From: a virus
Strand: one strand, 5' to 3'
DNA: 32,000 bases
IMG/VR virus record: IMGVR_UViG_3300017971_000311
Coordinates: 27,967-59,966 of that record
A program made the position numbers and the translations under genes. The notes beneath the pieces are model-generated. The model did not search any database. It saw nothing but the letters and a program-made list of their open reading frames with translations, and was not told the origin of the DNA. Shown one piece after another: positions 28,332-30,257 of this stretch (the first letter of the stretch is position 1; each line of letters starts with the position of its first letter).

Positions 28332-28337
28332 TAAAGC

Positions 28338-28597
28338 ATTCCGCCTCCCTCTGGGATCCTGGCGGCGCGCTTACGCTACCGGATGAGCGAGGAGCCAAAA
28401 ACGTGGGCCGATCCTTGGCTGGTAGTTCGCGTGAAAATTAAAGTAAAGATCCCAGCGGCGCCTACGTCGAGAAGTGGGTCCTTGCTTGGAGGAGTCAAGG
28501 GTCACTTAAAGCCTCCCACGTGGTCCCGCCTGCTGGGCCTTAATTGACGGCAGGTAGTCCCGCTACAGCAGCGTGCACCTGCTTTGGTGGGGCGCTT
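28338..28597 (+). ncRNA. Structured leader RNA upstream of tRNA-Gln(CTG)
   Basis: No credible ORF. Long-range helix CTGGGATC (28351-28358) with GATCCCAG (28449-28456). Local helices AGCCAA/TTGGCT and GGAGG/CCTCC. Confidence 0.35.
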
Positions 28598-28668
28598 TCC
28601 GGCGTCGTCTAACGGCAGGACGGCGGGTTCTGGCCCCGCAAATCGAGGTTCGAGTCCTCGCGTCGGAA
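28598..28668 (+). tRNA. tRNA-Gln(CTG)
   Basis: Acceptor TCCGGCG/CGTCGGA with U1-A72 as in Gln. D stem GTCT/GGAC. Anticodon stem GCGGG/CCCGC with loop TTCTGGC. T arm CGAGG-TTCGAGT-CCTCG. Confidence 0.85.
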
Positions 28669-28674
28669 TTGACA

Positions 28675-28726
28675 CCCAGCTCATTTTTCCATGATTTATT
28701 GAGCTGGGCAACTGACAAAATCATGG
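28675..28726 (+). promoter_or_regulatory. Two interleaved 9-bp helices (pseudoknot or mutually exclusive hairpins)
   Basis: CCCAGCTCA (28675-28683) pairs with TGAGCTGGG (28700-28708). CCATGATTT (28689-28697) pairs with AAATCATGG (28718-28726). GAGGAAATG and a 12-codon ORF follow. Confidence 0.35.
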
Positions 28727-28739
28727 TGAGGAAATGCAG

Positions 28740-29290
28740 GAACGGGTGAGGTTGCTGGTACGTAGCCTGTAAACCGAGTTTCCAATATTCGAGGCACTGG
28801 ACAACCAGCAAATCTGCCAACGTTCGGGTGGGCGCCCACGGCGTGGCGGAGATACTTAAAAGGCGTCCAGGCGGCAGGTGGGGCTACAGTGCAAGCCTGT
28901 CGTGGAGGGAGAGAGCGGACACGCATGCCCCACCTCTCTTCCGGACCCTCGTGTCTAGCTGCCTTCGTCTCGGCAGCGGGGGCGCGATGTAAGAGGGTGG
29001 AGGCGACTTCGTGAGCGCATTAGAAACCCTCCCTCCTAGGCAAGAGGGTAAAACTGCTAGACCCTGCTCACATGGTCTGAGCTGGCTGTAGAAGCTACGG
29101 TGGAGGTCAGTGTTTGAGGATCGAGCAGAAACAGGATGGCCCCTCGCGCCCTGTTGTAGGCTAGACGTGGGGTGTCGGTAGCGGCGAGCATTGGTGGCCC
29201 GCTTTGCTGTTCTGGCGCTCTCTTGGGTAACTGGGAGGTTTGACGAGTGGCTGCCTTATTGATGTTTCCTGAGCAGGAAGTAAAAAGGTT
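28740..29290 (+). ncRNA. Large structured RNA of about 550 nt (unclassified)
   Basis: No credible ORF on either strand. Perfect helices include AGGTGGGGC/GCCCCACCT (9 bp), TTGCTGGT/ACCAGCAA (8 bp), GCTGCC/GGCAGC, AACAGG/CCTGTT and GTGGGC/GCCCAC. Confidence 0.4.
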
Positions 29291-29293
29291 TGT

Positions 29294-29434
29294 GCATGAG
29301 TGGCGAAACGGAGAAGCATTGCTTCTATGAAACGCTTTATCGGTAATTGAGACGTGGCCGATACATACCGACAAGGCTGCGGTGCAAACATCGCGGCGCT
29401 TCCGGATGCAGGGTTCGAGTCCCTGCCTCGTGCA
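29294..29434 (+). ncRNA. Giant tRNA-like module A (141 nt)
   Basis: Acceptor GCATGAG/CTCGTGC (7 bp) followed by TG. T arm GCAGGG-TTCGAGT-CCCTGC with a 6-bp stem. Internal 9-bp hairpin GCTGCGGTG-CAAA-CATCGCGGC and hairpin AGAAG-CATTG-CTTCT. Confidence 0.4.
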
Positions 29435-29464
29435 AAATCCTGGGCATGATAGCAAAAACTGCCC

Positions 29465-29611
29465 GTGCGTGTGATTGCGGAAAATTGGTCCGCTACAGCA
29501 AGTTGCAGCCACCCTTAAAAGTGCTGCACAGACACGGCTTGCTACACCAGTACAGCTTGCGTAGTGCGCTACGTATTGTTGTGCGCAGGGTTCGAGTCCC
29601 TGCCGCGCGCA
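29465..29611 (+). ncRNA. Giant tRNA-Leu(UAA)-like module B (147 nt)
   Basis: Acceptor GTGCGTG/CGCGCGC. Leu-type D arm GCGG-AAAATTGGTC-CGC. A bulged 7-bp helix is capped by a loop containing CTTAAAA. UNCG-capped hairpin CGTAG-TGCG-CTACG. T arm GCAGGG-TTCGAGT-CCCTGC. Confidence 0.45.
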
Positions 29612-29671
29612 ACACTGTAAAGTACGAGGCCTGGTTGCGCACCCGATTAAGTTCAGGGGAAAGTCCAGGGT

Positions 29672-29817
29672 GCATGCGTGGTGGAAGAGGTAGACACTAA
29701 CGAGTAAATCGTTGAGGGTAACACCAAAGGGATGAGGTTCGAGCCGGTGGCGTAACCGCTGCCGGTAAATAAGCCCCAGAGTCGAACCATGCAGGGTGCA
29801 AATCCCTGCCGCATGCA
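29672..29817 (+). ncRNA. Giant tRNA-like module C (146 nt)
   Basis: Acceptor GCATGCG/CGCATGC plus TG. Leu-type D arm GTGG-AAGAGGTAGA-CAC. Hairpin AACG-AGTAAAT-CGTT. A 76-nt insert carries the 9-bp hairpin CCGGTGGCG-TAAC-CGCTGCCGG. T arm GCAGGG-TGCAAAT-CCCTGC with G at position 55. Confidence 0.4.
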
Positions 29818-29948
29818 GATTGGTTGCAACGCAGCGCGGGACTTCCCTGCTCTCGCGTGCTGTGACTTGCAGCTAACTGGGAGTGGATGCGTCTTTCAGG
29901 GAGGCTTTACTCACTCACAGCGACCTGGGATTGTCGTAAAAAGCACCA

Positions 29949-30070
29949 GCGTGGATGGCGGAAAAGGTAGACGCTACTGAATGGGTATGTCGAACTGCTG
30001 GCAAAGCCGATAAATTTCACCCATGAATGTGCAGGACGACACTGCAGGGTGCAAATCCCTGCTCCACGCA
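29949..30070 (+). ncRNA. Giant tRNA-like module D (122 nt)
   Basis: Acceptor GCGTGGA/TCCACGC plus TG. Leu-type D arm GCGG-AAAAGGTAGA-CGC. A 44-nt irregular hairpin is closed by ATGGGT/ACCCAT. T arm GCAGGG-TGCAAAT-CCCTGC. Confidence 0.4.
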
Positions 30071-30230
30071 AAGGTAGCACGACTATTTTTCAGTTGTGGT
30101 CGTAGCAGTAGCCAAACGAAAACGCCCGGTAACTGAACGCGAGTGAGAGTAGCCTTGGCCCAGCTCCTCCGGCGATCGGGATTAAATATGGGCCACTTTT
30201 AATCATGGTTCACATTTTTCTGAGCAACGG

Positions 30231-30257
30231 TCTCCTGTTTTTAAATATTACAGGAGG
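30231..30257 (+). promoter_or_regulatory. Hairpin sequestering the SD of ORF 30263
   Basis: TCTCCTGT (30231-38) pairs with ACAGGAGG (30250-57): 8 bp including one G-U, with a T/A-rich 11-nt loop. The 3' arm is the RBS. Confidence 0.35.

What the first reader, a model, noticed from the sequence alone, without database searches (positions are those of the whole stretch)
28332..30257. A 1.9-kb promoter-driven, ORF-poor RNA island
A near-consensus promoter (TTGACA-N17-TACAGT at 28303-28331) opens a stretch with no credible protein-coding capacity. It runs up to the SD of ORF 30263. The only long ORFs there are Cys/Arg/Ser-rich and overlap T-arm motifs.

The island contains a 260-nt structured leader, tRNA-Gln(CTG) and two interleaved 9-bp helices. 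A segment of about 550 nt follows (28740-29290), dense with perfect 6-9 bp local and long-range helices. Examples are AGGTGGGGC/GCCCCACCT and TTGCTGGT/ACCAGCAA. The four giant tRNA-like modules come last.

Large ornate RNAs such as GOLLD and ROOL are known to sit next to tRNA genes in phages and prophages. I cannot tell by eye whether 28740-29290 belongs to one of them or is new.
Basis: partly seen in the sequence, partly recalled or inferred. Interest (0 to 1): 0.75.

Follow-up and report, generated by a model that had tools for sequence, protein, structure and literature searches.

The report
Phage operon of tRNA-shaped scaffold RNAs
This 1.9-kb gene-free stretch of an uncultured large phage is a promoter-driven cluster of RNA genes, not one giant RNA: it holds one normal tRNA and four tRNA-shaped RNAs, at least two of which belong to a widespread, unannotated phage RNA family also present in the model phages SPP1 and phi3T.

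Summary
The island is real and non-coding. The promoter belongs to a motif found 7 times on the + strand (0.43 expected). No ORF in the island shows single-frame conservation or a Pfam/PHROG hit.

It is not GOLLD, ROOL or any other Rfam 15 family. The flagged 28740-29290 segment folds no better than shuffled sequence (z -1.2 and +0.15). Only 28670-28950 has a homologue, in one related phage, which keeps a pseudoknot and two hairpins. In another relative the same slot holds a canonical tmRNA.

The main result concerns the four "giant tRNA-like modules". M3 and M4 match (66 and 72 bits) a covariance model built only from other phages. The model describes a 7-bp acceptor-like stem, a D arm identical to that of tRNA-Leu, and a T arm whose loop is usually UGCAAAU. 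The anticodon and variable arms are replaced by a 33-230 nt insert that differs in nearly every member. More than 200 copies were found in viral contigs and Bacillota genomes, all unannotated. Orthologues of M3 and M4 keep their insert helices through compensatory changes. M1 and M2 share the architecture but score too low to assign.

Function is unknown. My best guess is a natural tRNA scaffold that stabilises variable RNA cargo.

The parts
28303..28331 (+). Sigma-70-type promoter TTGACA-N17-TACAGT
   Evidence: Found by the promoter scan. The motif class occurs 7 times in the window, all on the + strand, against 0.43 expected. Relative L135 has TTGACA-N17-CATAGT at the equivalent place upstream of its tRNA-Gln.
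28332..28596 (+). Leader or spacer with no evidence of a discrete structured RNA
   Evidence: MFE z = -0.90. nhmmer finds no homologue in six related islands. No Rfam hit.
28597..28669 (+). Canonical tRNA-Gln(CUG)
   Evidence: Called by ARAGORN. Rfam tRNA scores 55.6 bits. It is syntenic in L123, L130, L132 and L135.
28670..28950 (+). Unit U: conserved non-coding segment of unknown function
   Evidence: nhmmer E = 6.7e-18 to L124 12847-13090. The RNAalifold consensus has 10 doubly changed pairs. It is found only in L124 among eight relatives and nowhere else in the viral or metagenome scans.
28675..28726 (+). H-type pseudoknot inside U. Stem A is 28675-28683/28700-28708 and stem B is 28689-28697/28718-28726
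   Evidence: Both stems pair 9/9. L124 12822-12868 keeps the topology at 9/9 (with a 2-nt bulge) and 7/7. Its inner stem A sequence differs (CUGG/CCAG in L124, GCUCA/UGAGC here).
28871..28942 (+). Two hairpins at the 3' end of U: 28871-28879/28895-28903 and 28907-28915/28934-28942
Evidence: This block is 84% identical to L124. Compensatory changes are G:C to A:U in the first hairpin and A:U to G:C in the second.
28951..29293 (+). Segment V: lineage-specific and unexplained
   Evidence: No homologue. MFE z = +0.15. No Rfam hit. No T-arm-like hairpin. No tmRNA-type tag ORF.
29294..29434 (+). M1: tRNA-shaped RNA with a 7-bp acceptor-like stem, a D arm carrying an inserted hairpin, and T arm GCAGGG-UUCGAGU-CCCUGC. 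It has no anticodon arm
   Evidence: R1 scores 26 bits, E 4e-5. Fold shown. That score is below the one true tRNA-Leu genes get with R1 (35-38 bits), so assignment to the family is inconclusive.
29468..29610 (+). M2: tRNA-shaped RNA with the same T arm as M1 and a 4-bp D stem
   Evidence: R1 scores 13 bits, E 0.12. Fold shown. The T arm plus 3' strand is 93% identical to that of M1. Assignment to the family is inconclusive.
29672..29817 (+). M3: member of the tRNA-Leu-derived scaffold RNA family, with a 101-nt insert
   Evidence: R1 scores 65.9 bits, E 8e-16, and the model was built without window sequences. The orthologue L135 4446-4598 is 75% identical with 8 doubly changed pairs, including two in the long insert helix GGUUCGA/UCGAACC, which becomes GGUCUGA/UCAGACC.
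29949..30070 (+). M4: member of the same family, with a 77-nt insert
   Evidence: R1 scores 72.5 bits, E 1.3e-17. The orthologue L135 4658-4783 is 80% identical with 5 doubly changed pairs.
30071..30257 (+). Tail or spacer with a conserved hairpin at 30080-30086/30096-30102, ending at the Shine-Dalgarno AGGAGG (30252-30257) of ORF 30263
   Evidence: nhmmer E = 2.7e-9 to L124 13389-13513. BLAST gives 84% identity between 30065-30114 and L124 13382-13432. No + strand terminator was found.

Best explanation
The island is a polycistronic non-coding RNA operon of a large uncultured phage, organised like a tRNA operon.

Shown:
- A host-type promoter at 28303 opens about 1.9 kb that encodes no protein.
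- The stretch carries one canonical tRNA-Gln, a conserved pseudoknot-containing segment (U), an unconserved segment (V) and four tandem tRNA-shaped RNAs.
- M3 and M4 belong to a large phage and prophage RNA family derived from tRNA-Leu. The family keeps the acceptor stem, the tRNA-Leu D arm and a T arm, which are the parts that build the tRNA elbow and minihelix. The anticodon and variable arms are replaced by a structured insert that is different in nearly every member.
- In this lineage the inserts are conserved and covary.

Inferred:
- The tRNA-like scaffold lets host RNase P, 3' processing enzymes and possibly the CCA-adding enzyme cut each module out of the precursor. The result would be a stable 120-150 nt RNA.
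- The scaffold would then act as a natural counterpart of the engineered tRNA scaffolds used to express recombinant RNAs. The variable insert would be the working part, for example a protein-binding, decoy or base-pairing element.
- All four window modules start with G1-C72 and have A at the discriminator position. Leucylation in this lineage therefore cannot be excluded.
- U, V and the spacers are either independent small RNAs or processing by-products.
For: Non-coding status and promoter.

Discovery of the family:
- The exact M3/M4 T-arm 19-mer hits more than 118 IMG/VR contigs.
- ARAGORN called no tRNA at the motif in the 12 loci it was run on.
- In 108 of 118 hits, the 7 nt directly before UG-GCGGAAUAGGUAGACGC pair with the 7 nt directly after the T arm.

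Structure of the family:
- Alignment A1 is 99% paired, with 11 of 16 pairs doubly changed.
- An independent set of 98 cmsearch hits from loci seeded with the D-arm motif or taken from genomes is 98% paired. There, 14 of 16 pairs are doubly changed, including 5 of 6 T-stem pairs.
- In the set seeded only by the D arm, the T loop is UGCAAAU in 50 of 62 members.

Window modules: scores are. Family members score 45-90 bits and true tRNA-Leu genes 35-38 bits.

Inserts: 147 unique members fall into 125 insert clusters, of which 112 are singletons. Insert identity is decoupled from flank identity.

Orthologues in L135 show compensatory changes in the acceptor, D, T and insert helices. Their T loops read UUCGAAU/UUCGAUU where the window has UGCAAAU.

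Cultured phages SPP1, Ln-9 and phi3T carry copies scoring 70-81 bits. These three served as training rows for R1, so their scores are not independent. No ncRNA is annotated at any of the three sites.

Nineteen bacterial genomes, mostly Bacillota, carry the motif.

No Rfam family matches.

The slot is variable: L135 has a tmRNA there.
Against: - There is no transcript, processing or aminoacylation data for any member. Cleavage by RNase P and the scaffold function are inferences from shape.
- M1 and M2 score below true tRNA-Leu genes with R1. Their membership rests on architecture and on a T arm shared with M3 and M4.
- Family samples were seeded with exact 19-22-nt motifs, which overstates scaffold conservation.
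- A7 was fitted to the model, which favours pairing.
- Across the family the discriminator base is not conserved (roughly A 14, C 16, U 6, G 4 of 42, by eye from A1). The acceptor stem often extends to 8-9 bp. Both argue against standard tRNA maturation or charging in most members.
- Most family members are solitary and not in tRNA clusters, so the operon context here is not general.
- V and the leader, about 600 nt together, remain unexplained.
- Only one homologue of U exists.
Confidence: 0.6

Rival explanations
1. 28740-29290 is a single large ornate structured RNA, either related to GOLLD or ROOL or a new family of that kind, that happens to sit beside tRNA genes.
For: The segment is ORF-poor. 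Perfect 8-mer complements are modestly enriched, 7 against 2.6 expected. There is a conserved pseudoknot and hairpins at 28675-28942.
Against: No Rfam hit at E <= 10. MFE z is -1.16 and +0.15. Conservation stops at 28950 and exists in one relative only. The conserved part starts at 28670, outside the proposed unit. In L124 it directly abuts a tRNA-like module with no counterpart of 28951-29293. Relatives fill the slot with a tmRNA or with unrelated sequence.
Confidence: 0.06
2. The four modules are true decoding tRNAs, probably tRNA-Leu isoacceptors, carrying introns or giant variable arms. They would be spliced or used as they are.
For: - The D arm is identical to that of bona fide phage tRNA-Leu genes.
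- All four modules have G1-C72 and A73.
- Relative L121 has normal tRNA-Leu(UAG, CAA, UAA) genes, whereas this window shows only tRNA-Leu(AAG).
- L123 8250-8364 is a tRNA(CAU) with a variable arm of about 45 nt.
- The first hairpin loop of M3 reads GUAAA, and GCAAG in L135, so it contains the Leu anticodons UAA and CAA.
Against: - No module has a 5-bp stem with a 7-nt anticodon loop.
- The M3 hairpin has a 5-nt GNAAN loop.
- The Rfam tRNA model and default ARAGORN, with or without introns, miss all four. Only relaxed thresholds give inconsistent calls.
- The members inspected by eye across the family show no anticodon arm.
- The T loop has G at position 55 in most members.
- Known bacterial tRNA introns are group I introns of at least 200 nt (general knowledge).
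Confidence: 0.1
3. The island is decaying sequence: pseudogenised tRNA genes and remnants of a lost tmRNA, with no function beyond being a spacer upstream of ORF 30263.
For: V and the leader lack conservation and structural signal. The slot content differs between relatives. M1 and M2 have divergent D arms.
Against: The M3 and M4 inserts are 75-80% identical to those in L135 and show compensatory changes. The flanking gene is about 72% identical at the DNA level. The family is widespread with strong covariation. U keeps a pseudoknot through sequence change. No trace of a tmRNA was found.
Confidence: 0.1
4. The tRNA-like modules act in cis as RNase P punctuation marks. They would cut the long transcript to release U or the spacers, or to define the 5' end of the downstream mRNA. 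The inserts would be irrelevant.
For: The tandem modules lie between a promoter and a downstream ORF with no terminator in between. In SPP1 the element lies inside the late head operon. Precedents from general knowledge are mascRNA/MALAT1 and mitochondrial tRNA punctuation.
Against: The inserts covary between orthologues, which is not expected if they are irrelevant. A plain tRNA would serve as well. This rival overlaps with the best explanation, since both need RNase P processing.
Confidence: 0.14

Closest known systems
Type II tRNA-Leu
   Same: Both have a 7-bp acceptor stem, U8-G9, and the D arm GCGGAAUAGGUAGACGC. That exact 19-mer also occurs in bona fide phage tRNA-Leu(UAA/CAA) genes. Both have a T arm with a T-loop-type heptaloop. 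In this phage lineage the modules also have A73.
   Different: The modules have no anticodon stem-loop. The T loop is usually UGCAAAU, with G where tRNAs have U55. The T stem is 6 bp. Length is 88-290 nt. The discriminator is not conserved across the family. Neither the Rfam tRNA model nor ARAGORN recognises them.
tmRNA (tRNA-like domain with a large insertion)
   Same: In both, the 5' and 3' ends form an acceptor/T-arm minihelix and a large insert takes the place of the anticodon arm. Both can be phage-encoded. In relative L135 a true tmRNA sits in the slot just upstream of the M3 and M4 orthologues.
   Different: The modules have no G3:U70, no tag reading frame and no four-pseudoknot body. 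They keep a full D stem and are 2-3 times shorter. The Rfam tmRNA models are negative.
T4 species 1 and species 2 RNAs (rnaC, rnaD)
   Same: These are small stable RNAs of 139 and 119 nt encoded in a phage tRNA cluster, with no function given in the annotation. rnaC ends in a T-arm-like hairpin, CCGGGUUCGAAUCCCGG.
   Different: R1 detects no similarity (9.6 bits). They have no tRNA-Leu D arm. They are restricted to T4-like phages.
Engineered tRNA scaffolds for recombinant RNA expression (Ponchon and Dardel 2007, cited from my own knowledge)
   Same: The architecture is the same: acceptor, D and T arms are kept and the anticodon arm is replaced by arbitrary structured RNA. The engineered constructs are processed and stabilised like tRNAs.
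   Different: Those are artificial constructs. Nothing shows that the natural RNAs are processed or stabilised in the same way.
GOLLD and ROOL large ornate RNAs
   Same: They are phage and prophage associated, often lie next to tRNA genes, and are non-coding.
   Different: No covariance-model match at E <= 10. There is no single conserved unit of 500-800 nt here. The island breaks up into small independent units.

Membership tests
GOLLD (RF01998) and ROOL (RF03087); accession numbers recalled from memory | A match to the family covariance model | tested here: not met
   cmscan of 28000-30400 against all 4227 Rfam 15 models at E <= 10 returned only tRNA-Gln and chance-level hits (mascRNA, DUF3800-X, mir-187). 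The whole-window scan at gathering threshold returned tRNAs only.
GOLLD and ROOL | One conserved structured unit of about 500-800 nt with covariation along its whole length | tested here: not met
   Homology to relatives covers only 28670-28950 and 30071-30200 outside the modules. MFE z is -1.16 and +0.15.
tmRNA | A match to the Rfam tmRNA models (standard and permuted) or an ARAGORN call | tested here: not met
   Nothing in the window. The positive control works: L135 4002-4378 scores 120 bits and ARAGORN gives the tag ANDNFVPEGAALAA*.
tmRNA | A tag reading frame ending in a hydrophobic ...LAA-type tail, and a G3:U70 pair | tested here: not met
   No such frame in 28670-29470. Position 3:70 is A:U in M1 and M3, and G:C in M2 and M4.
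Canonical tRNA | A cloverleaf with a 5-bp anticodon stem and 7-nt loop, detected by the Rfam tRNA model or ARAGORN | tested here: not met
   This verdict applies to M1-M4. They are missed at default settings, with or without introns. The feature is met for tRNA-Gln 28597-28669.
tRNA-Leu-derived scaffold RNA family (defined here, model R1) | An R1 score above that of true tRNA-Leu genes (35-38 bits). Members score 45-90 bits | tested here: met
   This verdict applies to M3 and M4 only. M4 scores 72.5 and M3 65.9 bits. M1 (26 bits) and M2 (13 bits) fall below the tRNA-Leu range, so they are inconclusive.
tRNA-Leu-derived scaffold RNA family | A 7-bp acceptor-like stem formed by the 7 nt directly before UG plus D arm and the 7 nt directly after the T arm | tested here: met
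   All four modules pair 7/7, and the first three can extend by a U:A pair. In the family this holds for 108 of 118 hits, and all 7 pairs covary.
tRNA-Leu-derived scaffold RNA family | A tRNA-Leu-type D arm, GCGGAAUAGGUAGACGC, with a 3-bp stem | tested here: met
   M4 has GCGGAAAAGGUAGACGC and M3 has GUGGAAGAGGUAGACAC, which carries a compensatory U:A. M1 has a hairpin inserted in the D loop, as a few family members do. M2 has a different 4-bp D arm, so for M2 the feature is only partly met.
tRNA-Leu-derived scaffold RNA family | A 6-bp T stem with a heptaloop of T-loop type, UGCAAAU in about 80% of members | tested here: met
   M3 and M4 have GCAGGG-UGCAAAU-CCCUGC. M1 and M2 have the same stem with UUCGAGU. 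The L135 orthologues of M3 and M4 carry UUCGAAU and UUCGAUU, so the two loop types interchange.
tRNA-Leu-derived scaffold RNA family | The anticodon and variable arms are replaced by a non-conserved structured insert | tested here: met
   The inserts are 77-101 nt and have no BLAST match to 147 other inserts. No anticodon arm is present.

The most novel reading that the evidence does not exclude
M3 and M4, and probably M1 and M2, belong to a previously undescribed and very widespread class of phage and prophage RNAs. The class is a tRNA-Leu-derived scaffold (acceptor stem, D arm, G55-type T loop) that carries a hypervariable structured insert. It would be processed like a tRNA and act in trans in phage-host conflict or phage gene expression. 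This phage would be unusual in carrying a tandem array of four.
Probability: 0.4. Interest if true: 0.85.

Novelty: new variant of a known kind. Interest (0 to 1): 0.68.

Why it matters
If the family is real and undescribed, it adds an abundant class of phage non-coding RNA. The class is present in workhorse phages (SPP1, SPbeta-like phi3T, SPO1-like Bacillus phages, Leuconostoc Ln-9) and in Listeria and Paenibacillus genomes, yet it is missed by tRNA finders and absent from Rfam.

The near-invariant tRNA elbow combined with a different insert in almost every member suggests one of two things. Either it is a general natural solution for making stable RNAs, or it is an arms-race element. Both ideas can be tested directly in B. 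subtilis.

There is also a practical point for annotation. Long gene-free stretches in tRNA-rich regions of large phages should be checked for such modules before they are called giant RNAs.

Tried and rejected
- Rfam at gathering and at E <= 10 on the island, and on 17 loci holding family members, gave no family.
- ARAGORN with intron options found nothing at default thresholds. At relaxed thresholds it gave contradictory calls, for example M4 as tRNA-Phe with a 41-nt intron. I rejected these as spurious.
- A search for a hidden tmRNA found no model hit and no tag frame.
- Recoded or unusual coding was checked through stop-codon usage per frame. No frame lacks any stop type.
- Flanking proteins used as probes in IMG/VR found no relatives.
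- Megablast of 24 kb of the window against GenBank phages found no match. A distant search of the island hit only tRNA-Gln.
- Exact-protein look-up of ORF 30263 returned only identical copies of the window.
- The conserved U motif searched in viral and metagenome contigs returned only the L124 contig.
- A neighbourhood analysis of 85 family loci found no consistently linked protein. The neighbours were methylase, terminase, exonuclease and late-regulator genes, each in at most 9 loci.
- BLAST of the M1-M4 inserts against 147 family inserts found nothing.
- Direct repeats linking 29044-29131 to the start of ORF 30263 are non-collinear and at chance level.
- A 12-nt complement between 28507-28518 and 29898-29909 has about 0.4 expected by chance.
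- Seven full-text literature searches found no description of the family. They included the conserved sequence strings and the SPP1 re-annotation paper PMC6316719.
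Full report
CONTEXT

The window looks like part of a large uncultured phage.
- It has 18 ARAGORN tRNAs and weak PHROG hits to major head and tail proteins.
- The product of ORF 26888-27838 is found at 100% identity on a 260-kb contig.
- There is no nucleotide match to GenBank phages.
- More distant homologues of ORF 26888-27838 are common in Planctomycetota genomes.

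CHECK OF THE OBSERVATION

The promoter TTGACA-N17-TACAGT is at 28303-28331. It is one of seven TTGACA-N16-18-TANNNT sites in the window. All seven are on the + strand, against 0.43 expected by chance. L135 has a matching site at the equivalent position.

Between 28300 and 30262 the longest open + frame is 354 nt, and no frame lacks a stop type. Forty-one open frames from the island were translated and compared with eight related loci. They gave only 12-40 aa matches that occur in several frames and on both strands at the same places, which is the signature of conserved RNA. The two flanking ORFs match in one frame at E 1e-25 to 1e-40. The six longest island ORFs have no Pfam or PHROG hit. I found no evidence that the island codes for protein.

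WHAT IT IS NOT

Rfam 15 finds only tRNA-Gln(CUG) at 28598-28668, even at E <= 10 with permissive filters. That excludes GOLLD, ROOL, tmRNA (standard and permuted), RNase P RNA, 6S RNA, group I/II introns and the riboswitch families, to the extent that covariance models can detect them.

Folding energies are ordinary:
- Leader 28332-28596: z = -0.90.
- 28670-28945: z = -1.16.
- 28946-29293: z = +0.15.

Perfect complementary 8-mers in 28740-29290 are modestly enriched, 7 against 2.6 +/- 2.1 expected, and 10 of 200 shuffles reach 7. The single 9-mer is not significant.

COMPARATIVE ANATOMY

I fetched relatives through homologues of ORF 26888-27838.

The order [that ORF] - tRNA-Gln(CUG) - variable RNA slot - tRNA-like module(s) - [homologue of ORF 30263] - tRNA-Gln(UUG) - tRNA-Val(UAC) is kept in L123 and L135. 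L135 fills the slot with a canonical tmRNA: 120 bits, tag ANDNFVPEGAALAA*. The window has no tmRNA and no tag-like frame.

nhmmer shows that 28670-28950 ('U', E 7e-18) and 30071-30200 ('tail', E 3e-9) have a homologue, and only in L124. The leader, 28951-29293 ('V') and the M3-M4 spacer have no homologue in any relative.

L124 keeps this topology although the inner half of stem A has a different sequence.

At the 3' end of U, the conserved pairings are two consecutive hairpins, each with a compensatory change. It loses 3 of 9 pairs in L124.

With one homologue, this is suggestive rather than proven.

THE FOUR MODULES

Each module has these parts:
- a 7-bp stem joining its two ends;
- UG (AU in M2);
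- a D arm;
- a long middle region;
- the T arm GCAGGG-(UUCGAGU or UGCAAAU)-CCCUGC;
- an A after the 3' strand.

None has an anticodon arm.

The exact M3/M4 T-arm 19-mer hit more than 118 IMG/VR contigs. In the 12 loci scanned, ARAGORN called no tRNA at the motif. The surrounding sequence showed a constant design: N7-UG-GCGGAAUAGGUAGACGC-[33-230 nt]-AU-GCAGGGUGCAAAUCCCUGC-N7', with N7 and N7' complementary in 108 of 118 hits.

BLAST found copies in cultured phages with no ncRNA annotated at any of the sites:
- SPP1, between genes 9 and 11;
- Leuconostoc Ln-9;
- phi3T, after the yonN homologue;
- hits to part of the element in SPO1-like Bacillus phages and Lactobacillus ATCC 8014-B2.

In the three copies read in full (SPP1, Ln-9, phi3T) the T stem covaries. 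The SPP1 re-annotation paper does not mention the element.

A covariance model (R1) was built from 42 non-window sequences. It scores M4 at 72.5 bits, M3 at 65.9, M1 at 26 and M2 at 13. On 99 further loci, family members score 45-90 bits. Bona fide tRNA-Leu genes with the identical D arm score 35-38 bits. M3 and M4 are therefore clear members. M1 and M2 cannot be assigned by the model.

The 98 further hits are 98% paired. Fourteen of 16 pairs are doubly changed, including 5 of 6 T-stem pairs. That alignment is fitted to the model, which favours pairing. A set seeded only on the D arm still shows UGCAAAU in 50 of 62 T loops. UGCAAAU fits the general T-loop pattern U-(U/G)-N-R-A (my own knowledge).

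Nineteen bacterial genomes carry the motif. Most are Bacillota, including Listeria, Paenibacillus and Sporosarcina.

No Rfam family covers the canonical members.

THE INSERT

Among 147 unique members the middle regions fall into 125 BLAST clusters, of which 112 are singletons. Insert identity is decoupled from flank identity. For example, L085 and L107 are 82% identical upstream but 57% in the insert. L024 and L109 are 86% identical in the insert but about 55% in the flanks.

Within this phage lineage the inserts are conserved. The L135 orthologues are 75% (M3) and 80% (M4) identical. They show compensatory changes in the acceptor, D and T stems and in the long insert helix of M3.

The first hairpin of M3 has a 5-nt GNAAN loop (GUAAA here, GCAAG in L135). 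That is not an anticodon loop.

MECHANISM (INFERRED)

The conserved parts are exactly those that build the tRNA elbow and acceptor/T minihelix. These are the features read by RNase P, RNase Z and the CCA-adding enzyme (established tRNA biology). I therefore propose that the modules are excised from the precursor like tRNAs, and that the scaffold stabilises a variable functional insert. This would be a natural analogue of engineered tRNA scaffolds.

Two other readings remain open: leucylation, because A73 is present in this lineage and the D arm is of the tRNA-Leu type, and a purely cis punctuation role.

No linked protein was found in 85 neighbourhoods.

VERDICT

The island is a real, promoter-driven non-coding RNA cluster. 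The idea of one large ornate RNA at 28740-29290 is not supported. The modules uncover what appears to be an undescribed and widespread tRNA-Leu-derived RNA family. About 600 nt of the island (the leader and V) remain unexplained.

Noticed in passing
window 21560-21740, - strand: Another long tRNA-like RNA of about 175 nt. Its 5' part reads GUACGGG-UG-GCGAAAUCUGGUAAACGC, it contains a conserved block AAGCUAUUCUCCAAAACUAAGCAUUCGCCAGUUUCACCGG, and it has a T-arm-like GCGGGUUUGAUUCCCGC. The same blocks occur in L121 4570-4738 and L124 3250-3360(-). ARAGORN does not call it.
   Followed up: partly
L135 4002-4378: A related phage contig carries a canonical tmRNA (Rfam 120 bits, tag ANDNFVPEGAALAA*). 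It lies directly after tRNA-Gln(CUG), in the slot that is unexplained sequence in the window.
   Followed up: yes
L123 8250-8364; L121 2898-2979; L122 7780-7856; L124 2963-3039 and 6999-7077: The relatives carry odd tRNAs. One is a tRNA(CAU) with a tRNA-Leu-type D arm and a variable arm of about 45 nt (Rfam tRNA 41 bits). Several others are ARAGORN 'tRNA-???' calls with 2- or 4-nt anticodons.
   Followed up: no
window 7015, 9315, 12991, 16011, 26683, 27861, 28303 (all + strand): A recurring promoter-like motif, TTGACA-N16-18-TANNNT, often extended to TTGACAACGTC. It occurs seven times against 0.43 expected and probably marks the phage's host-polymerase transcription units.
   Followed up: partly
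window 6417-6469 and 10614-10684: Two weak or partial Rfam tRNA hits (32.4 and 29.5 bits) lie next to canonical tRNAs and are not called by ARAGORN. They may be truncated or aberrant tRNA genes.
   Followed up: no
L205 12085-12225 and 12244-12387; L219 2251-2380 and 3004-3146; L206 7278-7405 and 8179-8321: Other viral contigs also carry two family members, and in L205 they are directly tandem. Arrays are therefore not unique to this phage.
   Followed up: no
L128 (SPP1) 1615-1660: Just downstream of the SPP1 family member there is a second hairpin holding a T-loop-like GCGGGUUCAAUUCCCGG, flanked by ACGGAC/GUCCGU and a U run. It gives a weak hit to the tmRNA tRNA-like domain (13.8 bits).
   Followed up: no
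window 22339-23073, - strand: This ORF is a strong DUF7873 match (E 8e-97). Homologues at 38-45% identity occur in large phages of Gordonia, Arthrobacter, Pseudanabaena, Vibrio and Rhizobium, and the gene is conserved next to tRNA genes in the relatives.
   Followed up: no
window 26888-27838: The ORF upstream of the island has more than 1,700 homologues. Many are in Planctomycetota genomes (Paludisphaera, Gimesia, Planctomycetaceae MAGs) at 41-45% identity. This may hint at the host phylum.
   Followed up: no
L005 2892-2961(-); L129 (phi3T) 2863-2928: Unrelated known RNAs lie near family members: a twister-sister ribozyme (44.7 bits) and a DUF3800-VIII RNA (44.7 bits).
   Followed up: no
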